A stretch of 64,000 nucleotides of DNA from Actinomycetes bacterium (GTDB taxonomy: Bacteria; Actinomycetota; Actinomycetes; Nanopelagicales; Nanopelagicaceae). The number at the start of each line of letters is the position of its first letter. Position 1 is the first letter of the stretch. The DNA is taken from contig JANXME010000326.1 of NCBI GenBank assembly GCA_025354785.1, forward strand, positions 1,506-65,505, written 5' to 3'. Positions 3,554 to 64,000 of the stretch are shown in pieces. The position numbers were made by a program, and so were the translations under genes. The notes beneath the pieces were generated by a model. It ran no database searches. It saw only the letters and a program-made list of their open reading frames with translations, and was not told the DNA's origin.

Positions 3554-3925
3554 TTATCCTTTGCTGAGTGGGGTTAAACGTACAACATCTTGTGAGGTAA
3601 AAGCTGGACAGTTGGGTGTGTGGATGCCTTCATATTCAGGTTTGGTCGATATACAATGGGTCGTACCAGATCCTGGACGAATGGGAACATCATGTTCTAA
3701 ACAGTTGTTGCACCAAGGGCAGACTCCGCCTTCGTAGGCGTGGTAGCCAGCAACCTCAGCCTGTTTGATAAGATTCTCTAAATGTGTGACGGTAGATAAC
3801 AGGTGTGTAATTATGTTTATTAGACCATATGTGTCGACATTACCGCCGTATGGTCCAAGCGCATTCAACACTTCTTTCGAAGGCACAGACCCCACTGCGT
3901 CATCTATCACTGTATCGATATTCAT
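3554..3925 (-). CDS. hypothetical Cys/His-containing protein
   Basis: 123-aa ORF with 1-nt spacing to both neighbours; CPWCNNC..H..C cluster. Confidence 0.55.
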   Translation of the reverse strand: MNIDTVIDDAVGSVPSKEVLNALGPYGGNVDTYGLINIITHLLSTVTHLENLIKQAEVAGYHAYEGGVCPWCNNCLEHDVPIRPGSGTTHCISTKPEYEGIHTPNCPAFTSQDVVRLTPLSKG

Positions 3926-3926
3926 A

Positions 3927-5375
3927 TTATCCTAATACTATATTCCCATCGTGTTTATACTGACTACGCCGTATTGAGTGGTGCTTAGCTAAAAACGATA
4001 CATCGGTGTTGAGATCTATTAGCAGACCATTCACCTTACCCGGAGCGGCTCTTTCAACGCGTCCTTTCAGTTGTCGTATATCAGTTACATCACCTGCGAC
4101 AATTAGTGCATCCAGCGAGGGTATGTCCAGACCAGTTGATCCAAGGTCTGAGACTATGCAGAGTACCTTTTTGGTGCGCATATTATCATATGCAGTACGA
4201 CGAGCCAGCCTCTTGGTTTTACCATTAATTAAGACTGAACCTGGAATAAGGTCATGTATCGCTTGAGAAAATGCCAGCTTATGTGGTGCATATACAAAGA
4301 CTGTTCTGCCACCATTCATTAGGTCGAGCGCCAATTTAGCGATCTCTGCATGATATAGTGGATTATCCAGGATCTCTACATCGAGGCAGTGTTTAAAATT
4401 TTTGGCATTGTCAGGCGACAACACTCCGCGAAAGCCCCTCTTAAAATGTTCTTTATATTCGGTTCTGAGTGGCTGCCGATTAATGATGCTTACTATTAGA
4501 GGGGCCTTAACACCCAAGGAGATGAAATCGACCTTCCGACAGTCGTAGATGACCTCCCCGAAATGCTGTTCCAACTCAAGGTTGAATTTTTTCTCGGCTT
4601 TCTCGGCCCAACCATATGGGGTAGCAGACATTCCGAAAAACTTTTCGGTGGCCGTAAAATACGGCATAATTTTCCCGACAGTATTGGAATCGTACAGGTG
4701 GGCTTCGTCAGATATCACGACCCCCACCATATTTACGTGTCGTAACAATAATTTACGTTTATCGGCCGCCTCAATCGATTTAGCGTCGGTAATCGACGCG
4801 AAGGACTGCAGAGTAGTAACGGTGATGGGCTGTAGATCAAATTCACCATCGCCAATTACACCAATTGGCTGATCAAACAACCTAGCGAGGTTTTGCTGCA
4901 TCTGATCGAGTAATACGAGATCGGTTACCAAGACCATGGCATATTTTTTAAGTGTATTGATCATCAATGCGCACATCAGACTTTTGCCGCTACCTGTCGG
5001 GCTTACTATTATGCCCATATCTTTTGCCTCAACAACCGGCAAAAGATTTTGTTGGAACTCATAAGACTTAATCAGATGGGCATTAAACTTATGATCGATA
5101 TGTGGCGTGTGCTTCAGGTTGATCGTAACTATTGGATTATATCCATTCTCGGTCAATATTTGCACCACGCGGGGCAGCAAACCACGCCTAAAAATCGTAG
5201 TGGACGGATTGAAAAGCCGATTATATCCATCCCAGCGTTTATTAATGAAGCTCCATACATGCTCATACCCCTCGGCACGGCACTTGAGTTCTTCGTATAT
5301 TAAAGTTGTAACTGAAGGCGTTAAGGCGCTCTCGATCTTGCAATCGATATTATCTACAGATATTTTAATATCCAT
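3927..5375 (-). CDS. SF2 DEAD/DEAH-box helicase
   Basis: Walker A VSPTGSGKS, DEAH box VISDEAHLY, motif III MSATP, C-terminal helicase motifs GLDIPSLDALI and GRVER. Confidence 0.85.
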   Translation of the reverse strand: MDIKISVDNIDCKIESALTPSVTTLIYEELKCRAEGYEHVWSFINKRWDGYNRLFNPSTTIFRRGLLPRVVQILTENGYNPIVTINLKHTPHIDHKFNAHLIKSYEFQQNLLPVVEAKDMGIIVSPTGSGKSLMCALMINTLKKYAMVLVTDLVLLDQMQQNLARLFDQPIGVIGDGEFDLQPITVTTLQSFASITDAKSIEAADKRKLLLRHVNMVGVVISDEAHLYDSNTVGKIMPYFTATEKFFGMSATPYGWAEKAEKKFNLELEQHFGEVIYDCRKVDFISLGVKAPLIVSIINRQPLRTEYKEHFKRGFRGVLSPDNAKNFKHCLDVEILDNPLYHAEIAKLALDLMNGGRTVFVYAPHKLAFSQAIHDLIPGSVLINGKTKRLARRTAYDNMRTKKVLCIVSDLGSTGLDIPSLDALIVAGDVTDIRQLKGRVERAAPGKVNGLLIDLNTDVSFLAKHHSIRRSQYKHDGNIVLG

Positions 5376-5758
5376 TAGAAAGCTGCGCGAGGCTGCTGGA
5401 CGCCCGTGATCATGCGCGAAGCAGTCTCTCGAATTGCCTCAAGGGTCTGAATGGTTCGGTAGAGGATGTCCTTGCGCTTATTCATACTCTCGGCCATCTC
5501 TTTGGTGGTTGTCTGACCTGAAGAACGTATCGAAGTCTGTGTCGGGGTGGCTCCAACCACTGTCACATATAGTTCTGTGGCAAATGATTGGCGGTTGGCC
5601 AGTTCGGCGAGCATCGGAACTAGTACTCCAGGTATGTTGAGTGTTTCATTGGGCCCCGGCTTGGGTAGGCGCACATTGAGCAGGGTTGAGGCCGCCCATA
5701 GACCTAGTTCGAGTGGGTCGGTAGTGGTTACGTTTAATATGGTGACGTCTGGGAGCAT
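5375..5758 (-). CDS. hypothetical protein
   Basis: 127-aa co-directional ORF; start abuts HNH remnant, stop overlaps helicase start by 1 nt. Confidence 0.5.
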   Translation of the reverse strand: MLPDVTILNVTTTDPLELGLWAASTLLNVRLPKPGPNETLNIPGVLVPMLAELANRQSFATELYVTVVGATPTQTSIRSSGQTTTKEMAESMNKRKDILYRTIQTLEAIRETASRMITGVQQPRAAF

Positions 5759-30915: not shown

Positions 30916-30955
30916 CAGATGCGATCCTGACTACAACTTATATAAAAAATATTAT

Positions 30956-31028
30956 TGAGAATGACAGGAGTTGAACCCGCGTCTACTAAGTCGATACTTT
31001 AGTCGCTCTACCGTTGAGCTACATTCCC
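30956..31028 (-). tRNA. tRNA-like gene with 9-nt anticodon loop (isotype undetermined)
   Basis: GGGAATG TA GCTC AACGGTA GAGC G ACTAA AGTATCGAC TTAGT AGAC GCGGG TTCAACT CCTGT CATTCTC A. Acceptor, D and T arms fold normally; the loop does not fit a 7-nt U33 pattern. Confidence 0.5.
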
Positions 31029-31063
31029 ATTTATTGCCTAATTAAGACCTTTTGACGTGTCAC

Positions 31064-40824: not shown

Positions 40825-40896
40825 TGGTGGGGAGTCCCGGTCGTGAGACGGGATCCTTGGCCGTAAGGCCGCCGTTCTACTTTGAACTAACTCCCC
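40825..40896 (-). ncRNA. 68-nt tRNA-like small RNA, paralogue A, with encoded ACCA tail
   Basis: GGGGAGT TA GTTC AAAGTA GAAC G GC GGCC TTAC GGCC AAG GA TCCCG TCTCACGAC CGGGA CTCCCC ACCA. Central tetraloop hairpin instead of an anticodon loop; 9-nt loop in the T position. Confidence 0.45.
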
Positions 40897-41039: not shown

Positions 41040-43085
41040 TTACTGACATATCCAATTGTCATTGGAATTTTTAGCCGTGAACAAAAGTTCATACCCAGTC
41101 TCTAGATTTACAGTGACTGCTCCAGTAAATGTTAGATAATCTGGTTCAATGAATGTACCGCCGCCACTTATAGCATTTGACAATGGCGTCCAACTGGACC
41201 ATGGACCATAGTTATCACGATGCGTTATATATATATTGTTATCAGTTCCAACAGTGGCCATCGCTTGTTTGTTTACGCCGCCAATGTCAGTACTAACAAG
41301 TGTTTCACCAGTACGACTGGCGCCCATGACATTCAATGGCGGGCGCTGGCTTATACCTACCGTTCCGCCTTGATTCCCTGCGCCGCCAGTCCCCTGCCAT
41401 GTGCAGGGATAATCCTGCGCCAAATCGGTGTACATGTCATAAGTTGCGATATATCTGTTTGGATCATTCATTGTAAATGCAATCGTGCATGCACGAGCAG
41501 GATCGACAGGTGTTGCTGGCCAAAATAGATCGCTGCATGACACAACGGGCGCTTGTGATGAAATAATAAATCCCGCTGGGAAGTTTGACCAGACTTGTGT
41601 CCATTGTTTCTCAGAGTAGTCAGAAGTTGTTGAGATTGTTGTCCAACTTACTGCGCCGCTAGGCCCATTAGGCTGCCAATACTGCCCCGGCCCCGGCGGT
41701 GGATTAACAATGTCTTGTCCATCGAAGAGATCCTGAGAATAGTCTAGATATACTACCACAATCAAATTCATTCCAGGTTCGTAGGCAACACTCACTGGTA
41801 GACGTGTTTCAATGGGGATCTGATATGGCGGACTCTTCAGCATGCCACATGATGTATTACACGACGGTGTGTCCTTGCAACCGTTAGGATAGTTGTAGCT
41901 GTTCCATGAATCCACCGTAGTACGACGTACCAAGCCATGGTAGGTCCAATTCGCTCGATCCGTGCTTGTCCAATATGAGACATTCCGGGTATTGGAGCCG
42001 CGAACGAATCCGAATGCCCACCATACCTTATGAACAGGATCGAATGTGACTGCCGGCTTGCGAAGTGAATCAAAGGGGCTTGCTGGAGCAAAGAGGCCAC
42101 CCGATCCCTTGTAATCATTGAATTTTACTGGGTGAAACTGATCGCTATCAATCACATGAATGTTTGATTCGGCAAACAGGCCCCACGGTGCTATGCCACC
42201 AGTATCTGATCCTCGCACTGCATCGAACCCACCAGCGCCACCAATCTGATTAGATGGGCTCAGCACTGCTGCGGTGAAGTTACTACCAGTGGGCAGCCAC
42301 GATGCTGTCGTTGTTTTATATATCGAATTGGTATAGTACCCATCAGTCCGTCTTGCGTCAGCGCAAGTAGTACCGGGGCGACTGCCATATCCAGCCACCA
42401 ATTTCATTATTTCATCTTCACATAAGGCATTTCGACTATAATACAAAACTTTGTTTAGATCCGTGCCCGTCGCTGGACCTGTTAGACAGGAAGAGTCCGA
42501 AACCATGCCATTGCCAGCAATCATCAAAAAGGCGCGTAGAATTATTTGTGATATTTCAATTCTATTCGGATTAGTTACGTAGTATGTACCATCCAAGTCA
42601 TATAGACTGGGATCTCTTAGTTCACCACCTCGATTCCATGTAACCCACAGTGTACCTGGGTTATTATATAGTGTGATTAACCAAGGGCCAGCTGGCGTGC
42701 CACTGCAATTTGACCAAGCCATGTGGCCAACTGGACACCCAGTCTTAGGACACGAAGTCATAACGCGTATGACAGTTTGCGTGGGGAGACAAGAAGACGC
42801 CGTTGTGATGCCATCATATACAAACTGCGTTCTAGAATTACCTTGTGACTGCAATACTGCAGCGGCTTGCAAAATGCTGGCCGTTGGGTCACCGTTCGCA
42901 TGGGCGCCGCCATTTGGTAAATTGATTACTGCCTGTTGCATTACGTAATGCTGCGGGAAGTATGATTGTCCAAACTGAGTGTGATTGCCATCGGTACTGG
43001 CTACATTTGAATCCATGGGTGGAATTGCCCAGGCTGACCTGTAACACAATACTAAGATTACACTATACCATCGAATTAGGTTCAT
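41040..43085 (-). CDS. secreted protein, function unknown (one Asp-box-like motif)
   Basis: Signal peptide MNLIRWYSVILVLCYRSAWA; WTSTDRANWTY resembles an SxDxGxTW Asp-box; 681 aa, Gly/Thr/Ser-rich. Confidence 0.6.
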   Translation of the reverse strand: MNLIRWYSVILVLCYRSAWAIPPMDSNVASTDGNHTQFGQSYFPQHYVMQQAVINLPNGGAHANGDPTASILQAAAVLQSQGNSRTQFVYDGITTASSCLPTQTVIRVMTSCPKTGCPVGHMAWSNCSGTPAGPWLITLYNNPGTLWVTWNRGGELRDPSLYDLDGTYYVTNPNRIEISQIILRAFLMIAGNGMVSDSSCLTGPATGTDLNKVLYYSRNALCEDEIMKLVAGYGSRPGTTCADARRTDGYYTNSIYKTTTASWLPTGSNFTAAVLSPSNQIGGAGGFDAVRGSDTGGIAPWGLFAESNIHVIDSDQFHPVKFNDYKGSGGLFAPASPFDSLRKPAVTFDPVHKVWWAFGFVRGSNTRNVSYWTSTDRANWTYHGLVRRTTVDSWNSYNYPNGCKDTPSCNTSCGMLKSPPYQIPIETRLPVSVAYEPGMNLIVVVYLDYSQDLFDGQDIVNPPPGPGQYWQPNGPSGAVSWTTISTTSDYSEKQWTQVWSNFPAGFIISSQAPVVSCSDLFWPATPVDPARACTIAFTMNDPNRYIATYDMYTDLAQDYPCTWQGTGGAGNQGGTVGISQRPPLNVMGASRTGETLVSTDIGGVNKQAMATVGTDNNIYITHRDNYGPWSSWTPLSNAISGGGTFIEPDYLTFTGAVTVNLETGYELLFTAKNSNDNWICQ

Positions 43086-44895: not shown

Positions 44896-47502
44896 TCACC
44901 TTAATAGTTGTAATAGTGCAGCCAGTTCGACCGGCGCCATCTTAGCAACACCAGCACATGTGTTGTTTACCTGATTGCAATTTGCTCCTACGTTAGGGTG
45001 AATACCATCACGAAGGTCTGCCAACGTTAATACCGAGTTAACATCTGCTAAACGCACTTTCTGCCCCGCAGTGACCCTTGCAGCTACCAGCCGGCGCAAC
45101 TCGGTATTATACTGTTGTGCAAGTACGGCCCGATCTACATTGTTCGGTGCTACCAACACTGACGACTGAGGTGGGATTGTTTGCACCACAATTTTTACGT
45201 TCGGTAGTGTTTGTTGAATGGTGGTGATTAGAACATCCTGTCGACCTGCAACACTCGTGCCAGTCTCGGCTGTCCACCATGCAATATCATTAGTTCCGGC
45301 CATGACGACCACAACATCTGGTTGATAGGTATTCAGCCACCCTACAACTTGCGCACTAATATCTCCAATTGTCCAACCTGGATGTCCCTCGTGGCGTGTG
45401 GAACATGGATCGTATGTATTTGCCTGAGACCCTACAGGTACGATATTATATCCAGCTGCGATTGCCTGTGTGGTAAGTGCGCAGCGCCATGACCATTCTT
45501 CTTGTGTTATCGAGTCACCAAGGTCCATGAGCTTAATGGCTGCGCCCGTGACCGGTGCACCCGCATCGACAACCCCGGCGTCTGGAACCACGGTGCCAGC
45601 GTCCTTTGCCACAACTCCTGCATCTGTCACTGGTGGCGGGGGTGTGCCCGCATCCGGTGTTTGAGTGCCCGCGCCCCACGAAATTGAGTCAACATATATA
45701 ATACCAGACAGGGCTGCGTTTGGCTGCAGTTCCACACCAAGGCTTTGCAACACACCTGGAACAGTGGGCAGAGTGAGTGTGAACGTATTCCATCCGACAA
45801 TCAGTGCTGACTGTGGGAACCAGTTAGAGTTCCATTTCCATGAAGTGGTTGCGTCTTCCTGAGCAAACACCTGTAATGAAGTGAGGGCCGTGACCACAGG
45901 GATATAGACATGGTATGTAATCGTCGTGCCGCGCGGGACTGCTGGGTTGGCTACGATGAAGCTCTGATTGGCAGATGAGGAGCCATTGAATGTTCCAGCC
46001 AGTGACCGTAAGCCAGCAAATGCCTTGGCCGTACTGGTACCAAGCGTGCCACCCCCGCCAGTTAGAGTAAACCCCTGCAGATTGCCCGCAGTCTCGAAGT
46101 TGCATTGTGCAGGATCCAAAACAACTCCACCTGCGTCTGGTGTGCCAGCATCCTTAGTGCCTGCGTCAGGTGACCCAGCATCAACAACTATCGTGCCTGC
46201 ATCCTTTATACCCGCATCCACAACCGTTCCAGCGTCAGGTGTTATACACACACAAGTACACACGGCACCTGCATCTGGCGACCCGGCATCAACAATGCCT
46301 GCGTCAGGCACAGGGGCGCTAGATGGTAGATTCATGCCTCCACTAGCATAAAATGTACCAACATTGACTTTCAGGAAATCGTTGTCAACTTCTTGACGGC
46401 TCTGGCATCCCTCGCCCGCTCCGAACAACAGTGAAATCATGCCACTGCTTACAAATTTTTGTAGATGCGTGGTGCCACCGTTGCCGAAGAAATATTCTGA
46501 ACGATTGTCTTTGTATCCACTACCTATGCTACCATTGTAGCATACATCCTTACTAAAGGAGTTGCCAATCGGCACCTGCCAAAGCACCCAACGCTTGGAT
46601 GCCTTTACGTTCCAGAGGCGCATCCATTCAGCATAACGATTGAAGCTTCTGGTGTTTATGGCAGCTGTATCAGCTGTGTCCCACCAACGATTCTCTCCTC
46701 TTACAAGCGTGTAGTAGTTAGAATCTCTGTCAAGAGGGTCGCCCACTAATATATCATATGTATCACCAGTTATATTAGCGACTAGCCCCAGTGGCGCTAA
46801 GAAGTTGTATACATTGTCAACAGCTGGCTGTAGCGGATCGGTCACATTGAAATGTATGATGTCTAACCCAGTTGCCCAGCCAGAAATGTGCATACCCAAT
46901 ATTACGTTTGTTGCACCAACAGACTTGCGCATCTGCAAAAATGCTAACCCCCATCCTGCAGCCGTATTGGGTAGCCCGGCTAGCTCTGGTAGACCAGTGG
47001 ATGCGATTGCGGCTGGAGCAGTTGGTACTACGGCTGACTCTTGTAGATATGCATATCCATCTGGTTCAAGCATAACTAGGACCGGTCTGCCAAATGTCTT
47101 TGCTTGCTGCATTAGCAGCTTGAAATCGCCAAAATATTCGGCCATTGCTGTGGGCGATTGTACCTTTTGGTAGAATCCGGTATTAGCGGGCGGGATGTCA
47201 TACATTTCATAGTACGAGATAGCTGGAATGTATCCGTTGGCGTCTGCGGACTTGAAGAAGGACTGAGCGAAGGCGCCGTCACGTGGGCCACCGCCCCAAT
47301 TGGTGGCCCAGGAGTATGTCAGATAGATATATTCCAGATCCCACTGGACACCGCTATTGTGCATCCAGGTTGTGGACGCTGAGTCGTTGTTGTTGAATAG
47401 CCCGATAGATAACTTTTGCGGCATTGGTGCCGGCACAGACCCAGATGGGCCTGCCCATGCATTAACAGTAAGAAGGAGGCAGATTAAGCAGCTTAATTTC
47501 AT
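44896..47502 (-). CDS. secreted modular protein: N-terminal domain, DAG-rich linkers, beta-sandwich (CBM-like) domain, C-terminal SGNH/GDSL hydrolase
   Basis: Signal peptide MKLSCLICLLLTVNAWA; linkers PDAGIVDAGSPDAG..DAGTKDAGTPDAGG; SGNH blocks LGDSITQ, MAGTNDI, DGIHPN. Confidence 0.75.
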   Translation of the reverse strand: MKLSCLICLLLTVNAWAGPSGSVPAPMPQKLSIGLFNNNDSASTTWMHNSGVQWDLEYIYLTYSWATNWGGGPRDGAFAQSFFKSADANGYIPAISYYEMYDIPPANTGFYQKVQSPTAMAEYFGDFKLLMQQAKTFGRPVLVMLEPDGYAYLQESAVVPTAPAAIASTGLPELAGLPNTAAGWGLAFLQMRKSVGATNVILGMHISGWATGLDIIHFNVTDPLQPAVDNVYNFLAPLGLVANITGDTYDILVGDPLDRDSNYYTLVRGENRWWDTADTAAINTRSFNRYAEWMRLWNVKASKRWVLWQVPIGNSFSKDVCYNGSIGSGYKDNRSEYFFGNGGTTHLQKFVSSGMISLLFGAGEGCQSRQEVDNDFLKVNVGTFYASGGMNLPSSAPVPDAGIVDAGSPDAGAVCTCVCITPDAGTVVDAGIKDAGTIVVDAGSPDAGTKDAGTPDAGGVVLDPAQCNFETAGNLQGFTLTGGGGTLGTSTAKAFAGLRSLAGTFNGSSSANQSFIVANPAVPRGTTITYHVYIPVVTALTSLQVFAQEDATTSWKWNSNWFPQSALIVGWNTFTLTLPTVPGVLQSLGVELQPNAALSGIIYVDSISWGAGTQTPDAGTPPPPVTDAGVVAKDAGTVVPDAGVVDAGAPVTGAAIKLMDLGDSITQEEWSWRCALTTQAIAAGYNIVPVGSQANTYDPCSTRHEGHPGWTIGDISAQVVGWLNTYQPDVVVVMAGTNDIAWWTAETGTSVAGRQDVLITTIQQTLPNVKIVVQTIPPQSSVLVAPNNVDRAVLAQQYNTELRRLVAARVTAGQKVRLADVNSVLTLADLRDGIHPNVGANCNQVNNTCAGVAKMAPVELAALLQLLR

Positions 47503-60062: not shown

Positions 60063-60316
60063 TTAAGCCTCTTAAGCACGATTCGCCGCATTGTAACAAA
60101 CAACACTGCAATCGCAATGCCACCGGGTAGTAATATAAGACCGACCAATACTATCGTTTCGGTCTTATTCGGCTTCGGTCCGAATATTACGGTTGAGGCT
60201 CGCTTTGAAAAGCTTAACAGTGCGATGCCCAATTGCGCTGTGTACATCCTTGCCTTCAACAAGTTCGCCTTTACCTTCTCTGAGCACATCTTCCACCATT
60301 GCACTAATAATGTCAC
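60059..60316 (-). CDS. possible small membrane protein (start unclear)
   Basis: C-terminal TM IVLVGLILLPGGIAIAVLFV; the N-terminal part overlaps the Rnl2 3' end in another frame. Confidence 0.3.
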   Translation of the reverse strand: MTLLVQWWKMCSEKVKANLLKARMYTAQLGIALLSFSKRASTVIFGPKPNKTETIVLVGLILLPGGIAIAVLFVTMRRIVLKRLK

Positions 60317-61121
60317 GCATAGAATTGATAGTACGCTTCTCTTCGGGCATCTTATCTAACACGTGCTGCAAACGAACATCGGTCACCCATTCGTCGGCGA
60401 TTGCTTTAGCATTGTCGAGTACAGCTAGTTTCGCCGGATCGACAACTTTGCGCACACTCGTTGTCTCGCGCCACTCGGGGCGCTTGTGTTTTGCAATCAC
60501 CCGGTCCCCGTTGTTCGCGCGCAACTCTATTAGCGGTCTGGCGACGACGCCTTCGGCGATCTTGTCCGCGCCACACCCATTCCGGATTGCCTGTGTGGAG
60601 AAAGCGTCTCGTTGCGCATCCAATGCCTCAACGGTAGCAGGAATACGAACATAGTGCACAAAGTCAAATCCTAGATCTAGAGCAACCTTCTCGGCCTTAG
60701 GTACACTGAGCCACAAGTTGCCAATTTTTACGTCGAAGGCAACAAACTTGAGCTCTTTCCCGTAGGTATTAGACATACCTTGACATTTGCCACCATATGC
60801 TTCGCCAAAGACAATGACCTTATCCATGCCCAATCTAGTGAAGGCTTCAGACAACTTATCCTTGTCAAATAAGCTAACAAATTTTTCGTATTTCTCCCCA
60901 CCAGAGAAAAATCCGACGCCCACTTGAGGCTTCCCATCACACCCCTCGCATGGTAGCCCTAGATTTTGCGCACTGCCTCCACCACCGCCACATTCGGCAC
61001 AGGGAGTGAGTCGGAAAGATACATGGGCGCTCGTGCCATGAATCTTTTCCATGGCATAACACTCCTTGAAAAGGAGTATTTCTTGGTTCTTGTACAGGTT
61101 CTCTATATGTAAGTATCCCAT
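60165..61121 (-). CDS. ATP-dependent RNA ligase, Rnl2-like
   Basis: Motif I EKIHGTS, FGEAYGGKCQG, EGVVARP, KHKRPEW. ATG 61121 lies directly after the upstream stop. Confidence 0.8.
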   Translation of the reverse strand: MGYLHIENLYKNQEILLFKECYAMEKIHGTSAHVSFRLTPCAECGGGGGSAQNLGLPCEGCDGKPQVGVGFFSGGEKYEKFVSLFDKDKLSEAFTRLGMDKVIVFGEAYGGKCQGMSNTYGKELKFVAFDVKIGNLWLSVPKAEKVALDLGFDFVHYVRIPATVEALDAQRDAFSTQAIRNGCGADKIAEGVVARPLIELRANNGDRVIAKHKRPEWRETTSVRKVVDPAKLAVLDNAKAIADEWVTDVRLQHVLDKMPEEKRTINSMRDIISAMVEDVLREGKGELVEGKDVHSAIGHRTVKLFKASLNRNIRTEAE

Positions 61122-61123
61122 TA

Positions 61124-61600
61124 TCAACTCACGTTTGTAACTGCGTATAGGGGGTATGTTCCCCGAACAAACACACTGCTTAAAACTTCTGGAGCACGAG
61201 ATACTGCGAAACATCGTTTAAGATCAATGTCATCATAATTCAAGCTCCATCCGGCATCTTCTAGCTCATCTCTTAGGCTGCCCATGCTATCATAAGTCGC
61301 TTGTAGTATAGCTGCGATGCCGTCTATTATGTCGTTTTCGACATGAACATGAAGCTCGTCAAGCTTGACACCACATTCTGGGCAAAATTTACACTGCGTC
61401 TTAATCGCACCATCAGCCTTACAGTCTCCTAGATGCCCGTCGTCTTCGTCAATATCTTGACCAAATACCCTAGCGAGGCTCTGCAGTGCATCTAGCACAG
61501 AGTCAAATCCTTTAATGTGGCTAATAACCATGCAGGACATGCTCTGGTCCTCTGCATACCCTTGATAGAGCCATAGTGTTTTGACCGGCTTTTTCTTCAT
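61124..61600 (-). CDS. hypothetical protein
   Basis: MKKKPVKTLW start with AGGAG SD; CKFCPEC ribbon. Confidence 0.5.
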   Translation of the reverse strand: MKKKPVKTLWLYQGYAEDQSMSCMVISHIKGFDSVLDALQSLARVFGQDIDEDDGHLGDCKADGAIKTQCKFCPECGVKLDELHVHVENDIIDGIAAILQATYDSMGSLRDELEDAGWSLNYDDIDLKRCFAVSRAPEVLSSVFVRGTYPLYAVTNVS

Positions 61601-61872
61601 AGTTGCTCCTAAAATTTTGCACCCCATATTAGCCAATACTAATATGATTAGATGTGTGGGTCCGTAACTGGACTAGGACCCCATCTCCACGAATGATCGT
61701 CGCAGGCCGATATATCCACACCAGATTCAACCCTGGCGTTTGTACTATACCACCAACCGGACCTTAACTAGTCTAACCGGCTGAAGTGATGTACTGCGCA
61801 AATCCGAATAGTGGTTCGACGCAGCGTTGTGTCTCTTCCCCATAGGTGCATTCTGGGATCGGGGACGGTTTC
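61601..61872 (-). ncRNA. candidate structured non-coding RNA region 2 (class unknown; strand inferred)
   Basis: 272-nt gap in a tightly packed genome; G+C-rich. Hairpins CCAG-GGTTGAAT-CTGG, GGGTCC..GGACCC, CTGCG..CGCAG. Only a poor 72-aa ORF overlaps it. Confidence 0.4.
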
Positions 61873-62424
61873 TTACAACAACTGCTTCGCGAGTTCGTAT
61901 AAAACAATATTTCCCGCTTGTGAAGTATTCAAACAAAATCCAACTCCCGGCATTGGAATGCAAACAATCATGTCTGACACATGAAGGATTTCCTCTGGGA
62001 CGCCGGTAGTTTCGTGACCAAGCACCAACATAATCTCCTTGCCCCTCTCTACCCTTAGCTCCGACAATGGGATTGCTCGCTCATCTAACTCTAACGAAAT
62101 AAGTGGAATGTTTTTTGCTAGCGTATATTCGAGAAAAGAGCTTGGGTTGGAATGTTGCCTGATATTAATCAGGCGGTTAAGACCACCAGATAGACTAACC
62201 ATATCTCGATAGCTGGGTGCGGCGCCAATGATGTGCAGATCCATTGCTCCGAAACAAGCCATCGCACGGATGATAAACCCAATATTGCCATCACACCGAA
62301 AATTTATAGTAGCAACGGATATGGGGATGGTCTTGGCGCCAAGAGCCTTAGCCATATGTCGCTCAGCGCGAGTTTTTCTCTGGAGAAGAGGCGAGAATAC
62401 ATTCCCACTCTGTAAGACCTGCAT
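61873..62424 (-). CDS. SpoU/TrmH-family RNA 2'-O-methyltransferase
   Basis: NIGFIIRAMACFGA, MLVLGHETTGVPEEIL, CIPMPGVGFCLNTSQAGNIVLYE. GGAGG SD before ATG 62424 (alternatives 62439, 62355). Confidence 0.85.
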   Translation of the reverse strand: MQVLQSGNVFSPLLQRKTRAERHMAKALGAKTIPISVATINFRCDGNIGFIIRAMACFGAMDLHIIGAAPSYRDMVSLSGGLNRLINIRQHSNPSSFLEYTLAKNIPLISLELDERAIPLSELRVERGKEIMLVLGHETTGVPEEILHVSDMIVCIPMPGVGFCLNTSQAGNIVLYELAKQLL

Positions 62425-62677
62425 ATGAATTACCTCCATCAGCTAATTTACGGTACAATTGCTGCACCTCAATGACCCATGGCTCAACAAAAGCCATGTA
62501 ATAAGGTGGCCAATCAGGTTCTTTCGGCACCCACACCCTAATACCAGCCTCTCTGAGTGTTAGCACCTTGTCCATGCGCAAATAACCTAGCGTAACCATC
62601 CCCGGTGGACCTTGATGCAATTTTGCCTCCGATCTTGCGAAATCAGGATGCAGTGGATCGTGCAAAAATCGTGCCAT
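62363..62677 (-). CDS. member of the paralogue family (helix module, no zinc finger)
   Basis: FVEPWVIEVQQLYRKLADGGNSYAGLTEWE. MARFLHD start at 62677; the track start reads into tRNA-Lys. Confidence 0.45.
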   Translation of the reverse strand: MARFLHDPLHPDFARSEAKLHQGPPGMVTLGYLRMDKVLTLREAGIRVWVPKEPDWPPYYMAFVEPWVIEVQQLYRKLADGGNSYAGLTEWECILASSPEKNSR

Positions 62678-62679
62678 AA

Positions 62680-62753
62680 TGGGATTGGTGAGACTTGAAC
62701 TCACGACCTTGCGCTTAAAAGGCGCTTGCTCTAACCAACTAAGCTACAACCCC
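62680..62753 (-). tRNA. tRNA-Lys (UUU)
   Basis: GGGGTTG TA GCTT AGTTGGTTA GAGC A AGCGC CTTTTAA GCGCA AGGTC GTGAG TTCAAGT CTCAC CAATCCC A. Confidence 0.85.
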
Positions 62754-62775
62754 AAAACACCTAAATCATATTAAG

Positions 62776-62848
62776 TTGCACGTATCGGATTTGAACCAAT
62801 GTTTCCACTCTGTACGAATGGTATCCTAGACCTCTAGATGAACGTGAA
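62776..62848 (-). tRNA. tRNA-like gene, UAC (Val) anticodon position but G at position 33
   Basis: TTCACGT TC ATC TAGAGGTCTAG GAT A CCATT CGTACAG AGTGG AAAC ATTGG TTCAAAT CCGAT ACGTGCA A. 3-bp D stem, one acceptor mismatch. Confidence 0.55.
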
Positions 62849-62857
62849 CTTCTCTAT

Positions 62858-62895
62858 AGATGGGTACTATTCGAATCATAGTTAGTATCCCATCT
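62858..62895. repeat. long imperfect hairpin (AGATGGG..CCCATCT) around a TTCGAA core
   Basis: AGATGGGTACTATTCGAATCATAGTTAGTATCCCATCT. The AGATGGG word also occurs beside the tRNA fragment at 40771. Confidence 0.5.
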
Positions 62896-62907
62896 GTATT
62901 GCGAGAA

Positions 62908-62988
62908 TGGAAGTTGCAGGAATCGAACCTGCTTGTATTTCTACGTCCGATTTACAGTCGGGTGTCAAGTCCGTAAGACGGAACTTCC
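62908..62988 (-). tRNA. tRNA-Tyr (GUA), type II
   Basis: GGAAGTT CC GTC TTACGGACTT GAC A CCCGA CTGTAAA TCGGA CGTAGAAATACAA GCAGG TTCGATT CCTGC AACTTCC A. Confidence 0.85.
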
Positions 62989-63281
62989 GTAAATACTGCG
63001 CCCCAAACACCACCTCAACACCTCAAACGGTTGGTCAGTCTTATCCATGCGCCGGCCAACAGACACATGGGCTCGTGACTCTGTGGGTTTATAACGTGGC
63101 AGGTGCCACACTTAACAGTTTGTCACTATTTAGTACTCGTCTCGGCGTCTCAACCCGTCCGGATTCAACCCCGGACTAGCCACCTCTTCACTGGATGGCC
63201 CCAACTCCCCTGCGCAGTACCAGGGATTCGGTTCAAGTGTTATGTAGCTAGCGGAGGGCCGGTGCCCAGAGGCAATCGCAT
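62989..63281 (-). ncRNA. candidate structured non-coding RNA region 1 (class unknown)
   Basis: 293 nt between a CDS stop and tRNA-Tyr; about 56 percent G+C by hand count over 63001-63280. Helices GTCCGG-GGTTGAAT-CCGGAC, GCCATC..GGTGGC (G-U only on minus strand), GTGGC-ACCT-GCCAC, CCCTG..CAGGG, CCATG..CATGG. Terminal pairing CGCCCCAA/TTGGGGCG. Confidence 0.45.
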
Positions 63282-63653
63282 TTAATACTTGGGGCGGGTA
63301 GTGCCAACCGGTATGGTCAGATCCAGCGCTATGACTCTATCCGCAAATTGAAGATAGGACAATATTGATGCATCATCCATAAGCCGCAGATCACCAGCGG
63401 TAGATGATACGTTATCCAGATATGTTACATTAATTTGAAACAATCTGAGCGCTATTTCAATGCGATCAATCATAAACGTACACTCCAATTTAACCAAGGC
63501 AGCAACGATGGGAGTGGCTCCTGTACCCCACATTCGCGTGTAATCCTGCTGTACATCTACCTTCGCAGATTCAACTCTGCCACGTGAGGTCCCTCTCCCG
63601 AGCGTGTACACCCGGATCAGCCATGGCGCCATATGCGTGGTGACGGTCTGCAA
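63282..63653 (-). CDS. hypothetical protein
   Basis: 123-aa co-directional ORF. Confidence 0.5.
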   Translation of the reverse strand: MQTVTTHMAPWLIRVYTLGRGTSRGRVESAKVDVQQDYTRMWGTGATPIVAALVKLECTFMIDRIEIALRLFQINVTYLDNVSSTAGDLRLMDDASILSYLQFADRVIALDLTIPVGTTRPKY

Positions 63654-63731
63654 CTAGCGTCACTCCTAGTATCTTGTGAAAACTGTAATGCGGATACAAT
63701 AACATAATTGCTACAGACTCGTCGGCCTGCT

Positions 63732-64000
63732 ACCATTTTGCATGAAAACTTGTTCAAAATGTAGCAGCAGTGCCGGCCCATTTAAGGGAAGTTGCAACTA
63801 TTGTCAAAAATGTCAGAGTGAGTATTTCAAAGCTCGTTATCAACTAAAATACAAAGACAGTGTTAAGGAACATAAAAAGCAGCACATTAGAACTATTGTT
63901 GCCTATATTCAACAAGTTAAAGATGGCAAACCATGTTTAGATTGTGGGAAGCTATACCCATATTATGTAATGGACTTCGACCATGTGCGAGGGGAGAAAA
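63732..64000 (+). CDS. HNH endonuclease, family B (3' part beyond the right window edge)
   Basis: Hand translation MKTCSKCSSSAGPFKGSCNYCQKCQSEYF..KPCLDCGKLYPYYVMDFDHVRGEK; paralogue of 57596..58051. Confidence 0.75.

What the first reader, a model, noticed from the sequence alone, without database searches (positions are those of the whole stretch)
61601..61872. Second G+C-rich non-coding region sharing a hairpin with region 1 through a compensatory change
This 272-nt gap lies between the SpoU methyltransferase gene and the next CDS. It contains CCAGATTCAACCCTGG (plus strand); region 1 contains CCGGATTCAACCCCGG. The loop is identical and the stem differs by a paired G-to-A and C-to-T change, which preserves base pairing. 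The two regions also contain the same 10-mer in opposite orientation: GTACTGCGCA on the plus strand here and TGCGCAGTAC on the plus strand of region 1. It is a half of the palindrome GTACTGCGCAGTAC. Two related RNAs flanking an RNA methyltransferase, an Rnl2 ligase and a tRNA block look like one functional module.
Basis: seen in the sequence. Interest (0 to 1): 0.65.

Follow-up and report, generated by a model that had tools for sequence, protein, structure and literature searches.

The report
New pseudoknotted RNA family in phage
The gap after the phage's SpoU methyltransferase gene encodes one of three copies in this window of a structured RNA that matches no catalogued RNA family: a 5' hairpin whose loop pairs with the 3' tail, plus a hairpin with a near-invariant tRNA-T-loop-like loop; it recurs in related uncultured phages and its function is unknown.

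Summary
All genes here are on the minus strand.

**What the hairpin is.** It belongs to a conserved RNA element that occurs three times in the window:
- R2, the finding: 61604-61866
- R1: 62989-63281
- R3: 63478-63670

I found 21 copies in 9 related phage genomes, recovered through SpoU homologues and one metagenome scan.

**Shared architecture.** Each well-resolved copy has these parts:
- Hairpin H1, of the form U-CCC...GGG-G, followed by GA.
- A variable middle hairpin or domain.
- Hairpin H3.
- A 3' tail that is complementary to the H1 loop, forming a pseudoknot.

**Evidence.**
- All three helices covary (0 of 500 shuffles reach the observed score). G·U pairs fix the strand as minus.
- A covariance model built from 4 copies finds held-out copies at E-values from 4e-10 to 2e-3.
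- Rfam 15 has no match, and the region encodes no conserved protein.
- A copy sits from overlapping the SpoU stop codon to 36 nt after it in all 8 SpoU loci. R1 always ends 3-13 nt before a tRNA or tRNA-like sequence.

**Function.** Unknown. My best guess (about 0.4) is a stable RNA cut out by tRNA-processing enzymes, with the T-loop-like loop presented to a partner, possibly SpoU. Rivals are a processing or 3'-end stabilising element, a ribozyme, and a riboswitch.

The parts
61604..61866 (-). R2: the RNA element that fills the reported gap (about 260 nt). Approximate limits: from a few nt upstream of H1 to the conserved AAAAUUUUAGGAGC after the pseudoknot tail.
   Evidence: Orthologue in L129 6590-6855 is conserved from H1 to the tail. 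Indels are not multiples of 3 and there are stops in all frames. The minus strand folds to -86.3 kcal/mol (z -1.82); the plus strand folds to -70.3 (z +0.28).
61839..61857 (-). R2 hairpin H1: CCCA-GAAUGCACCUA-UGGG, preceded by U and followed by G then GA.
   Evidence: Same hairpin in L129, and in L267 as TCCCAGACATGCACCTATGGGGAAGA. Family-wide, the H1 helix is 97.8% paired, and 4 of 6 pairs carry double changes.
61845..61850 (-). R2 pseudoknot strand a: UGCACC in the H1 loop.
   Evidence: Perfect complement of 61618-61623. RNAalifold independently pairs these columns. Cognate versus non-cognate test.
61740..61838 (-). R2-specific insertion domain between H1 and H3 (99 nt; 95 nt in L129). It holds the stem GCUGCGU/GCGCAGU and a second hairpin.
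   Evidence: The other types have only 16-39 nt here.
61791..61800 (-).
   Evidence: L129 has CGCGCAGUUAG at the same place.
61718..61739 (-). R2 hairpin H3: ACGCCAG-GGUUGAAU-CUGGUGU (7 bp including one G.U).
   Evidence: Partial covariance-model hit at 61719-61769, E=0.048.
61624..61717 (-). R2 3' domain between H3 and the tail, with three predicted hairpins.
   Evidence: RNAalifold on window plus L129 gives hairpins at alignment columns 163-181, 189-212 and 228-243, each with a double change.
61618..61623 (-). R2 pseudoknot strand b: GGUGCA within GGGGUGCA, 10 nt upstream of the AGGAG ribosome-binding site of the 158-aa gene.
62989..63281 (-). H1 63208-63225, with loop GUACUGCG holding the 10-mer. 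H3 63157-63176. Tail CGCAGUA 62994-63000, ending 5 nt before tRNA-Tyr.
   Evidence: Covariance-model hit 63155-63226, 82 bits. Orthologues in L129, L130, L131, L132 and L133. The pseudoknot is 100% paired, and 3 of 7 pairs carry double changes.
63478..63670 (-). H1 63598-63615 (CCGGG-UGUACACG-CUCGG). H3 63565-63580 (GCAG-AGUUGAAU-CUGC). Tail GUGUAC 63478-63483, directly before the start codon of a 63-aa ORF.
   Evidence: Found by model R2 at E=2e-7 although it was not in the training set. 79.5% identical to L129 3664-3856. Pseudoknot GUACAC/GUGUAC here versus AUGCAC/GUGCAU in L129.
61873..62439 (-). SpoU/SPOUT 2'-O-methyltransferase gene directly upstream of R2.
   Evidence: PF00588 1.7e-24. 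Best NCBIfam match is TrmH at 56 bits, far below its cut-off of 227. A copy of the RNA sits from overlapping the stop codon to 36 nt after it in 8 of 8 loci.
61124..61600 (-). 158-aa hypothetical gene downstream of R2.
   Evidence: No family and no homologue other than itself. The gene in this position differs in every relative.
60165..61124 (-). Rnl2-like RNA ligase gene.
   Evidence: PF09414 2e-11. PHROG 548 3.5e-25; TIGR02307 41 bits, below cut-off.
62680..62988 (-). tRNA block between SpoU and R1: tRNA-Lys 62680-62753, a weak Val-like tRNA 62775-62848, and tRNA-Tyr(GUA) 62908-62988.

Best explanation
The gap encodes, on the minus strand, one paralogue (R2) of a family of structured RNAs that has no match in Rfam 15. 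The family belongs to a small clade of large, uncultured, tRNA-rich phages.

**Shown: architecture.**
- A 5' hairpin H1, of the form U[CCCnn...nnGGG]G followed by GA.
- A variable hairpin or inserted domain.
- A hairpin H3 with a 4-7 bp covarying stem and a nearly invariant 8-nt loop, GGUUGAAU.
- A variable 3' domain.
- A 3' tail that pairs with the H1 loop. This H-type pseudoknot closes the whole molecule.
- The smallest copy is 77 nt, about the size of a tRNA. R2 is about 260 nt because of insertions.

**Inferred: how it works.**
- No promoter or terminator excess is seen around the RNAs, so they are probably transcribed with the neighbouring genes and tRNAs.
- They are probably released as stable compact RNAs by the enzymes that process the adjacent tRNAs. 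RNase P cleavage at the downstream tRNA would leave R1 a 3' end 3-13 nt after the pseudoknot.
- The stacked H1 and pseudoknot helices would act as a rigid scaffold. This scaffold would present the invariant UUGAA loop, whose sequence is compatible with a T-loop, as the working surface.
- The partner would be something that normally reads a tRNA loop or elbow. The adjacent SpoU 2'-O-methyltransferase is the first candidate, either as the enzyme that modifies the RNA or as a protein that binds it.

**Confidence.** About 0.9 that this is a real, conserved, pseudoknotted RNA family read from the minus strand. About 0.4 for the stable trans-acting RNA reading. About 0.15 for the specific link to SpoU.
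For: **Hairpin recurrence and covariation.**
- H3 occurs three times in the window and in every relative, always on the gene strand.
- H3 helix, 17 copies: the inner 4 pairs are 100% paired. Pair types at position 4 are UA 6, CG 5, GC 4, AU 1, UG 1. The covariation score is 0.547 against 0.186 for shuffles (0 of 500 reach it), and at most 0.169 when the partner columns are slid.
- H1 helix, 16 copies: 97.8% paired, 4 of 6 pairs carry double changes, and the closing U.G pair is invariant.

**Pseudoknot.**
- The longest perfect complement between an H1 loop and its own downstream region averages 6.5 nt, and 14 of 16 are at least 6 nt.
- Against the downstream regions of other paralogue types the mean is 4.4 nt, and 10% are at least 6 nt.
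- In six R1 orthologues the 7 pseudoknot pairs are 100% paired, and 3 carry compensatory double changes.
- R3 shows GUACAC/GUGUAC versus AUGCAC/GUGCAU.
- RNAalifold independently pairs the R2 loop and tail.

**Family membership.**
- A model built from 4 copies, using H1 and H3 only, finds held-out copies at E-values from 4e-10 to 2e-3, including one I had not seen (L132 5135-5202).
- The second model finds window R3 at 2e-7 and L266 at 6.5e-15.

**Strand and coding.**
- The G.U pairs would be A.C mismatches on the plus strand.
- The minus strand folds better.
- It is not coding.

**Context that favours an independent RNA.**
- L129 R3 lies between two tRNAs, with 3-4 nt spacers.
- Copies occur in tandem: L258 A and B, and L129 R2 followed by R4.
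- R1 is always followed by a tRNA or tRNA-like sequence.
- The gene downstream of the SpoU-linked copy differs in every genome, while the SpoU-RNA adjacency holds in 8 of 8 loci.
- Promoter-like and terminator-like sites are not in excess.
Against: - There is no expression, end-mapping or biochemical data. The phage is known only from metagenome assemblies.
- The family comes from only about 9 related genomes, so part of the covariation is phylogenetically correlated.
- R2 itself has only two other representatives. L129 is one. L267 is cut off by the end of its contig after H1.
- R2 is recognised by the covariance model only over H3 (E=0.048), because of its 95-99 nt insertion. Its membership rests on the H1, GA, H3 and pseudoknot pattern.
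- A near-identical strain (L122) lacks H1-H3 of R3, so at least that copy is dispensable.
- Nothing shows that SpoU acts on these RNAs. In L258, no SpoU gene is visible in the roughly 600 nt of sequence held upstream of the copies.
- The T-loop reading of GGUUGAAU rests on sequence only. The loop has 8 nt, not the 7 of a tRNA T-arm.
Confidence: 0.4

Rival explanations
1. A cis-acting 'punctuation' element. The compact pseudoknotted fold marks cistron boundaries in a long transcript. It would act either as a processing signal for tRNA-type nucleases or as a block to 3'-5' exonucleases. The block would stabilise the upstream mRNA (SpoU, the 63-aa ORF) after cleavage at the next tRNA or gene.
For: - Copies sit immediately after stop codons. 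In L266, H1 starts at the base after the SpoU stop. In L132 the stop codon lies inside the H1 loop. In the window H1 starts 15 nt after the stop.
- The R1 tail ends 3-13 nt before a tRNA 5' end, so RNase P cleavage would leave the pseudoknot at the new 3' end.
- No promoter or terminator excess is seen, which is consistent with polycistronic transcription.
Against: - L129 R3 lies between two tRNAs, with no mRNA to protect.
- Tandem copies would be redundant.
- A simple stabiliser would not need a nearly invariant 8-nt loop, or paralogue-specific conserved domains of 100-170 nt.
Confidence: 0.25
2. A new class of self-cleaving ribozyme that cuts the polycistronic tRNA/mRNA transcript, comparable in role to the HDV-like theta ribozymes found next to phage tRNAs.
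For: - The elements have several copies per genome, on the gene strand, next to tRNAs and between cistrons.
- They have a compact pseudoknotted core of about 77 nt with variable peripheral hairpins.
- The H1-plus-tail topology resembles P1 and P2 of HDV-like ribozymes. A variable middle hairpin sits where P4 would be (my comparison, from knowledge of the HDV fold).
- Theta ribozymes are reported adjacent to viral tRNAs (PMC10879173).
Against: - No Rfam ribozyme family matches, even at E up to 10.
- The H1 loop, at 5-12 nt, has no room for P3, L3 or P1.1.
- Outside the helices, few unpaired nucleotides are conserved: the 8-nt loop, GA after H1, and U before it. The linkers show no conserved candidate catalytic residues or fixed cleavage dinucleotide.
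Confidence: 0.1
3. A riboswitch or translational operator in the 5' UTR of the downstream gene. Formation of the pseudoknot would control access to the ribosome-binding site.
For: - In the window, the R2 tail lies 10 nt before the AGGAG of the 158-aa gene.
- The R3 tail GUGUAC lies between GGAG and the ATG of the 63-aa ORF.
Against: - The downstream feature is not conserved. It is a tRNA for R1, another copy of the element for L129 R2, and a tRNA for L129 R3.
- For the SpoU-linked copy, the downstream gene is unrelated in each genome.
- The distance from tail to start codon varies from 4 to about 40 nt.
Confidence: 0.05
4. A decoy for a host RNA-guided or RNA-cleaving defence. One version is an RNA anti-CRISPR whose H1 imitates a type I-E-like CRISPR repeat hairpin. 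Another is a tRNA mimic that absorbs a tRNA-targeting nuclease.
For: - H1 with its flanks (for example AGAGUUCCCCGGUUCUGCACGGGGGAAAUG in L130) resembles the E. coli type I-E repeat GAGUUCCCCGCGCCAGCGGGGAUAAACCG. That repeat is recalled from memory and was not tested here.
- The elements sit among tRNAs, an RNA ligase and a 2'-O-methyltransferase, which is typical RNA-repair and counter-defence context.
Against: - The host and its CRISPR repeats are unknown.
- The inner stem and loop of H1 vary freely, and the loop is engaged in the pseudoknot. That fits poorly with mimicry of one fixed repeat.
- C-rich/G-rich stems are a low-information resemblance.
Confidence: 0.07
5. No RNA gene at all. The similarity would be chance, a repeated DNA palindrome (a protein-binding site or terminator), or a small protein-coding gene.
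For: - Direct sequence similarity between the three window regions is limited to the 14-16 nt hairpin.
- The fold z-scores of single sequences are weak: -1.82, -1.40 and +0.48.
Against: - Compensatory changes occur in three separate helices, including a long-range one.
- G.U pairs are strand-specific.
- Held-out copies are detected at E down to 1e-10.
- There are stops in all frames, and similarity hops between frames.
- No run of T follows H3.
Confidence: 0.03

Closest known systems
Phage T4 species 1 and species 2 stable RNAs (rnaC, rnaD) in the tRNA gene cluster
   Same: They are small stable RNAs of unknown function, encoded inside a phage tRNA array on the tRNA strand and flanked by tRNAs (annotation of AF158101). 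L129 R3 has the same context between two tRNA-Leu genes, and R1 sits directly upstream of a tRNA.
   Different: - There is no sequence or structural similarity.
- rnaC ends with a canonical T arm (GGTTCGAATCC) and an acceptor-like stem.
- Neither has the H1 hairpin, the GGUUGAAU loop or the loop-tail pseudoknot.
- The T4 RNAs are single copies, whereas this family has 3-4 paralogues per genome.
HDV-like 'theta' ribozymes next to phage tRNAs (PMC10879173)
   Same: Both are small pseudoknotted RNAs adjacent to viral tRNA genes. The 5' hairpin strand, the 3' tail pairing and a variable middle hairpin give a topology reminiscent of P1, P2 and P4.
   Different: - There is no P3, L3 or P1.1 and no identifiable catalytic C.
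- There is an extra invariant-loop hairpin (H3).
- No Rfam HDV-type model matches.
- Self-cleavage has not been tested.
tRNA and viral tRNA-like structures (for example the tymovirus TLS, whose acceptor arm is built from a pseudoknot)
   Same: - The minimal size is 77 nt.
- It has several hairpins closed by a 5'/3' pairing of 5-8 bp.
- One hairpin has a UUGAA loop that fits the T-loop pattern. GGUUGAAUCC differs from the tRNA consensus GGUUCGAAUCC by one missing C.
- A pseudoknot stands in for a terminal helix.
   Different: - ARAGORN and the Rfam tRNA and tmRNA models do not recognise it.
- The covarying stem leaves an 8-nt loop, not 7.
- H3 is separated from the 3' strand by 12-171 nt.
- There is no anticodon-like 7-nt loop and no CCA or discriminator.
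- The pseudoknot joins the 5'-most loop to the 3' tail, rather than being local to the 3' end.
Pistol self-cleaving ribozyme
   Same: The loop of a 5' hairpin forms a pseudoknot of about 6 bp with a downstream single strand.
   Different: In pistol the partner strand lies inside the P2/P3 internal loop, and the whole ribozyme is about 50 nt with its own conserved nucleotides (from knowledge of the family). No Rfam pistol match was found.

Membership tests
Any Rfam 15 family (4227 covariance models) | A match to a curated covariance model at the gathering score, or at least a suggestive E-value. | tested here: not met
   Window at gathering threshold: only tRNAs. Window 61400-64000 at E up to 10: only tRNAs and noise. 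Relatives L129-L133 at E up to 1: nothing overlaps any copy.
tRNA | A cloverleaf with a 7-bp acceptor stem, D arm, anticodon arm with a 7-nt loop, and a T arm with a 5-bp stem and 7-nt loop. | tested here: not met
   - ARAGORN, both default and relaxed or with introns allowed, and RF00005 call nothing credible in the three regions.
- The H3 stem covaries in a register that leaves an 8-nt loop.
- The middle hairpin loops have 3-11 nt with no conserved anticodon-like loop.
tmRNA | A tRNA-like domain with a canonical T arm and acceptor stem, plus a tag reading frame. | tested here: not met
   ARAGORN finds no tmRNA at default settings. The only Rfam tmRNA fragment (L131 4051-4068, 16 bits) is the T arm of a separate tRNA-like sequence downstream of R1.
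HDV-like / theta ribozymes | A nested double pseudoknot P1/P2 with P3-L3-P1.1 enclosed between the P1 strands, and a catalytic C in J4/2. | tested here: not met
   The H1 loop is 5-12 nt and holds only the pseudoknot strand, so there is no room for P3 or L3. No HDV-type Rfam hit. Catalysis was not tested.
T4-type stable RNAs of tRNA clusters (rnaC/rnaD) | Location within a phage tRNA array on the tRNA strand. | tested here: met
   R1 and R3 lie within or next to tRNA blocks in all relatives. L129 R3 is flanked by tRNA-Leu(CAA) and tRNA-Leu(TAG).
T4-type stable RNAs of tRNA clusters (rnaC/rnaD) | Sequence or structural relatedness to rnaC/rnaD, meaning a canonical T arm plus a terminal acceptor-like stem. 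| tested here: not met
   Reading the T4 sequences shows no H1, GGUUGAAU loop or pseudoknot pattern.
T-loop structural motif | A five-nucleotide U-N-N-R-A turn with a reverse-Hoogsteen pair between positions 1 and 5 and a stacking gap. The consensus is recalled from the literature. | tested here: inconclusive
   The UUGAA within GGUUGAAU fits the sequence pattern. In 17 copies, 5 of the 8 loop positions are invariant and a sixth is nearly so. The three-dimensional geometry cannot be tested with these tools.
Riboswitch / 5'-UTR regulator | A conserved aptamer coupled to an expression platform that controls a conserved downstream gene. | tested here: not met
   The downstream feature varies: a tRNA, another copy of the element, or unrelated genes. 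The spacing from tail to start codon varies from 4 to about 40 nt.
RNA anti-CRISPR (solitary repeat unit) | Near-identity to the CRISPR repeat of the host's own system. | not testable with these tools
   The host is unknown. Only a remembered resemblance of H1 to type I-E repeats is available, and the inner stem and loop of H1 vary.
The new family itself (H1 - variable hairpin - H3 - loop/tail pseudoknot) | U[CCC..GGG]G + GA hairpin; a hairpin with loop RG(Y)U(N)AAU; a 3' tail complementary to the H1 loop. | tested here: met
   R2 in the window has all three. H1 is at 61839-61857, H3 at 61718-61739, and the pseudoknot pairs UGCACC with GGUGCA. The same three features are in its L129 orthologue. 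The covariance model recognises only the H3 part of R2, because of the insertion.

The most novel reading that the evidence does not exclude
These RNAs could be a new functional class specific to large phages. One possibility is a new self-cleaving ribozyme class that processes tRNA/mRNA transcripts. The other is a tRNA-elbow or T-loop mimic that works with the linked SPOUT methyltransferase, or against a host tRNA-targeting defence. In the second case the paralogue-specific pseudoknots and domains would give each copy its own target.
Probability: 0.2. Interest if true: 0.85.

Novelty: new variant of a known kind. Interest (0 to 1): 0.62.

Why it matters
- **An unknown component of phage tRNA arrays.** Phage tRNA arrays and RNA-repair genes are now read mainly as counter-defence equipment, yet the non-tRNA RNAs inside such arrays remain unexplained. 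The T4 species 1 and 2 RNAs are annotated simply as small stable RNAs.
- **A well-supported family with testable structure.** This family has clear, testable architecture: two covarying hairpins, a covarying long-range pseudoknot, and a nearly invariant T-loop-like loop.
- **Features that point to function.** It has 3-4 diverged paralogues per genome and a strictly conserved position right after a SPOUT methyltransferase gene.
- **Practical experiments.** The 77-nt minimal version is small enough for direct tests of self-cleavage, RNase P recognition, methylation and structure.
- **Possible outcomes.** The results could reveal a new ribozyme, a new kind of tRNA mimic, or an RNA partner of a SPOUT enzyme.
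- **Annotation.** The family also explains several 'empty' G+C-rich gaps in these genomes.

Tried and rejected
- **16-mer scan of IMG/VR.** Scanning for CCRGGGTTGAATCYGG gave more than 120 hits, but BLAST showed no similarity beyond 17-19 nt. These are chance matches.
- **Pattern GGGGAR-N18-45-CGGGGTTGAATCCG.** It gave 3 IMG/VR hits and 114 GTDB genome hits. All lie in GC-rich, apparently coding DNA without H1 or a pseudoknot, and about 60 were expected by chance. The family is therefore not detectable in cellular genomes with this pattern.
- **Metagenome scan with H1 plus H3.** It gave 10 hits, of which only L258 is genuine.
- **Sources of relatives that failed.**
  - The only IMG/VR relative of SpoU (L001, 37% identity) is too distant and lacks the motif.
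  - The 158-aa neighbour has no homologues.
  - SpoU homologues at about 50% identity (L134-L137) belong to other phage types without the element.
  - INPHARED phages gave no match by megablast, blastn or tblastn with a large protein.
- **Direct alignment of the three window regions.** Only the hairpin aligns.
- **ARAGORN with introns and lowered thresholds.** It produced only spurious calls in the regions.
- **MAFFT alignments of the cores.** These put H1 out of register by one column. I therefore used fixed-length extracts for the pair counts, and a 4-sequence seed refined by Infernal for the models.
- **N-padding.** I considered padding a hand alignment with N and dropped the idea, because N columns would become model positions.
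- **T4 rnaC/rnaD.** Analogous in context only.
- **Two weak extra hits in the window.** Sites 45327-45342 and 41369-41409 lie in coding sequence and lack the full pattern, so I treat them as noise.
- **Literature.** Two full-text searches for a described family of this kind found nothing relevant.
Full report
**1. The observation**

- The gap 61601-61872 lies between two minus-strand genes.
  - Upstream is a SpoU/SPOUT methyltransferase, 61873-62424/62439 (PF00588, 1.7e-24).
  - Downstream is a 158-aa ORF, 61124-61600, with no family. An Rnl2-like RNA ligase, 60165-61124, follows it.
They are the only matches in 64 kb, against none expected. The stems differ by a paired change.
- The inverted 10-mer is also real. 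The chance that two ~270-nt regions share some inverted 10-mer is about 0.07 by my arithmetic, so alone it is weak evidence.
- The gap is only mildly G+C-rich: 0.489 against 0.446 for the window.
- Reading the minus strand shows a third copy of the hairpin at 63565-63580.
- GTTGAATC occurs 7 times in the window against 2.8 expected. Three of these lie in non-coding stretches within about 1.9 kb, all on the gene strand, and each is flanked by at least 4 complementary pairs.

**2. What the window is**

- It is part of a large phage genome. It carries ribonucleotide reductase, DNA ligase, a helicase, MoxR/VWA proteins and about ten tRNAs.
- It has no close relative among isolated phages.
- Near-identical contigs exist in Logan assemblies (L122-L128). 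They are too close to be informative, except for one mosaic junction described in section 9.

**3. Finding relatives**

- The 158-aa neighbour has no homologues.
- SpoU does have homologues, at 84% to 60% identity. Their contigs are L129, L130, L131, L132, L133, L266 and L267.
- L129-L133 share the local gene order, with tRNA blocks, SpoU and (in L130-L132, as in the window) the RNA ligase. L266 and L267 are too short to show more than SpoU and its flanks.
- The hairpin recurs in all of them except L267, whose contig ends before where H3 would lie.
- It is always on the gene strand and never inside a called tRNA. Its loop is (A/G)G(C/U)U(G/A/U)AAU, and its stems differ.
- By position and flanking similarity the copies fall into four types:
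  - **R1:** upstream of a tRNA. Found in the window, L129, L130, L131, L132 and L133.
  - **R2:** after SpoU, long. Found in the window, L129 and L267.
  - **R3:** after tRNA-Leu(CAA) or a gene. Found in the window, L129 and L131.
  - **R4:** after SpoU, short. Found in L129, L130, L131, L132, L133 and L266.
- One metagenome scan added a more distant 174-kb contig (L258) with two tandem copies. One of these is only 77 nt long.

**4. Architecture**

Every well-resolved copy has the same order of parts:

- A hairpin H1, preceded by U and followed by G then GA. It reads U[CCCnn-loop-nnGGG]G-GA.
- A variable hairpin, or in R2 an insertion of 95-99 nt.
- The hairpin H3.
- A spacer: 12-21 nt in R4, 70-84 in R3, 94-104 in R2, and 142-171 in R1.
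- A 3' tail that is the reverse complement of the H1 loop.

In the finding itself:

| Part | Coordinates | Sequence |
|---|---|---|
| H1 | 61839-61857 | loop GAAUGCACCUA |
| H3 | 61718-61739 | ACGCCAG-GGUUGAAU-CUGGUGU |
| Tail | 61618-61623 | GGUGCA, which pairs with UGCACC at 61845-61850 |

RNAalifold cannot draw pseudoknots, yet it independently picked this loop-tail pairing as the closing helix of R2.

**5. Is it more than chance?**

- **H3.** Across 17 copies the four pairs next to the loop are always paired. One position shows UA, CG, GC, AU and UG. The covariation score is 0.547, against 0.186 for shuffles (0 of 500) and at most 0.169 for slid partners.
- **H1.** Across 16 copies it is 97.8% paired, and four of six pairs carry double changes. 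The closing U.G pair is invariant.
- **Pseudoknot, cognate test.**
  - The longest perfect complement between each H1 loop and its own downstream region averages 6.5 nt, and 14 of 16 reach 6 nt or more.
  - Against the downstream regions of other types the mean is 4.4 nt, and 10% reach 6 nt.
- **Pseudoknot, R1 orthologues.** In the six R1 orthologues the seven pseudoknot pairs are 100% paired, and three carry compensatory double changes. The pairs seen are:
  - UACUGCG/CGCAGUA
  - UUCUGCA/UGCAGAA
  - ACCGCA/UGCGGU
  - CCUGCA/UGCAGG
  - ACUGCA/UGCAGU
- **Pseudoknot, R3.** It changes from GUACAC/GUGUAC to AUGCAC/GUGCAU.
- **Covariance models.**
  - A model built from only four copies, using H1 and H3 alone, found held-out copies at E-values from 4e-10 to 2e-3. 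One of them was a copy I had not noticed, L132 5135-5202.
  - A second model found window R3 at 2e-7 and L266 at 6.5e-15.
- **Strand and coding.** The G.U pairs and the better minus-strand fold fix the strand. The region is not coding: all frames have stops, similarity to L129 hops between frames, and indels are not multiples of three.
- **Caveats.**
  - The genomes are related, so the counts are not independent events.
  - R2 has only two other representatives, and the model recognises it only over H3 (E=0.048) because of its insertion.

**6.

- In R1, GUACUGCGCA is the H1 loop plus the first stem base. It pairs with R1's own tail GCGCAGUA, just before tRNA-Tyr.
- In R2, UGCGCAGUAC is the 3' strand of a local stem (GCUGCGU/GCGCAGU) inside the insertion.
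- So the two occurrences play different roles.
- The R2 stem does repeat the sequence of the R1 pseudoknot duplex. L129, the only other genome in which both RNAs are seen complete, keeps GCGCAGU in both places. A trans pairing between R1 and R2 is conceivable, but two closely related genomes cannot test it.

**7. Context**

- A copy sits from overlapping the SpoU stop codon to 36 nt after it in all eight SpoU loci.
  - In L266, H1 starts at the next base after the stop.
  - In L132, the stop codon is inside the H1 loop.
- The gene that follows is different in every genome. The copy is therefore tied to SpoU, or to that position, and not to the downstream gene.
- R1 always ends 3-13 nt before a tRNA or tRNA-like sequence.
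- L129 R3 lies between two tRNA-Leu genes with 3-4 nt spacers.
- No excess of promoter-like or terminator-like sites surrounds the elements.
- SpoU cannot be assigned to TrmH, TrmL or TrmJ. All scores are far below the cut-offs.

**8. Most likely mechanism and rivals**

- **Shown:** a conserved, compact, pseudoknotted RNA with one nearly invariant loop.
- **Inferred:** it is co-transcribed with its neighbours. The tRNA-processing machinery excises it as a stable RNA. It works through the invariant UUGAA loop, which fits the T-loop pattern, held on a scaffold of stacked H1 and pseudoknot helices. The partner may be the linked SpoU enzyme.
- I put about 0.4 on the stable trans-acting RNA reading and about 0.15 on the SpoU link.
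- **Rivals:**
  - *A cis-acting processing or 3'-end stabilising element (0.25).* It fits the positions after stop codons and before tRNAs. It does not fit the copy between two tRNAs, the tandem copies or the invariant loop.
  - *A new self-cleaving ribozyme (0.1).* The context and topology are suggestive, and theta ribozymes do sit next to phage tRNAs. However, few unpaired positions are conserved, and the H1 loop has no room for an HDV-type core.
  - *A decoy for CRISPR or a tRNA nuclease (0.07).* This rests on a remembered resemblance only.
  - *A riboswitch (0.05).* The downstream features are not conserved.
  - *No RNA at all (0.03).*

**9. Other points**

- A near-identical strain (L122) replaces everything upstream of window 63517 with other genes and a canonical tRNA-Leu(CAA).
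  - The junction falls in a 9-mer, CCACUCCCA, shared by the tRNA 3' end and the interior of R3.
  - That strain keeps the R3 tail but lacks H1-H3, so R3 is dispensable, or is exchanged with the tRNA.
- R1 carries an invariant CCUCC in its 5' domain. In L131-L133 this reads GGACCUCCUUAG, which resembles the 3' end of 16S rRNA (from memory).

**10. Comparison with known families, and novelty**

- No Rfam 15 family matches in the window or in the relatives.
- The elements are not tRNAs or tmRNAs.
- The T4 stable RNAs rnaC and rnaD share the context but not the structure.
- HDV-like, pistol and viral tRNA-like structures share single features only.
- Two literature searches found no description.
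- I classify this as a new family of a known general kind: structured small RNAs embedded in phage tRNA arrays. Its function is open.

Noticed in passing
window 63517-63525 (minus strand); L122 4010-4092: This is a mosaic junction. Near-identical contigs L122, L123 and L125 match the window 100% from 63517 downward. Upstream they carry different genes and a canonical tRNA-Leu(CAA). The tRNA's 3' end, CCACTCCCA, coincides with the same 9-mer inside R3. That strain keeps the R3 tail but lacks H1-H3.
   Followed up: partly
window 63249-63261 (minus); L131 ~3706-3720; L133 ~4643-4657; L132 ~5099-5113: The 5' domain of R1 contains an invariant CCUCC. In L131, L132 and L133 it reads GGACCUCCUUAG. 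This looks like the anti-Shine-Dalgarno end of 16S rRNA (from memory). It might pair with ribosome-binding sites or with a GGAGG inside the RNA.
   Followed up: no
window 61791-61806 and 61824-61832 (minus) versus 63213-63220 and 62994-63001: The internal stem of R2, GCUGCGU/GCGCAGU, repeats the sequence of the R1 pseudoknot duplex ACUGCGC/GCGCAGU. L129 keeps GCGCAGU in both RNAs. A trans pairing between R1 and R2 is possible but cannot be tested with two related genomes.
   Followed up: partly
L130 4518-4547 and H1 of other copies: H1 with its flanks (AGAGTTCCCCGGTTCTGCACGGGGGAAATG) resembles the type I-E CRISPR repeat GAGTTCCCCGCGCCAGCGGGGATAAACCG, which I recalled from memory. This could be a lead to an RNA anti-CRISPR, or it could be a coincidence of C-rich/G-rich stems.
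   Followed up: no
window 62775-62848, 62908-62988, 30955-31029, 40828-40896: Several atypical tRNA calls:
- A Val(TAC)-like tRNA is seen only at a relaxed ARAGORN threshold.
- tRNA-Tyr(GTA) scores only 37 bits in Rfam and is missed by default ARAGORN.
- A tRNA-Asp is called with the unusual anticodon ATC.
- A further Rfam tRNA hit barely clears the threshold at 29.9 bits.
   Followed up: no
L131 ~3996-4075; L132 ~5362-5437: Directly after R1, these two relatives have a tRNA-sized sequence with a 7-bp acceptor-like stem and a canonical T arm (GCGCGGGTTCGAGTCCCGC and GCGCTGGTTCGAATCCAGC). ARAGORN does not call it. It occupies the position where the window has tRNA-Tyr.
   Followed up: no
L258 (reverse strand ~598-830): Two tandem copies of the element lie on a 174-kb metagenome contig that shares an NT5C-like gene with the relatives. 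No SpoU gene is visible in the roughly 600 nt held upstream. Copy A, at 77 nt, is the smallest member found.
   Followed up: partly
L267 (contig Hain_H41_01um_R1_304534): The contig name suggests a groundwater sample taken on a 0.1 µm filter. It carries an R2-type H1 32 nt after the SpoU stop, which makes it a third genome with the R2 type. The contig ends before H3.
   Followed up: no
L001 1780-1900 (IMG/VR 175-kb contig): A distant SpoU-carrying phage has its own odd tRNA-like stretch, with two adjacent T-arm-like hairpins (GGTTCGAGTCC and GGTTCGATTCC) and a tRNA call with a two-base anticodon. This is unrelated to the family described here.
   Followed up: no
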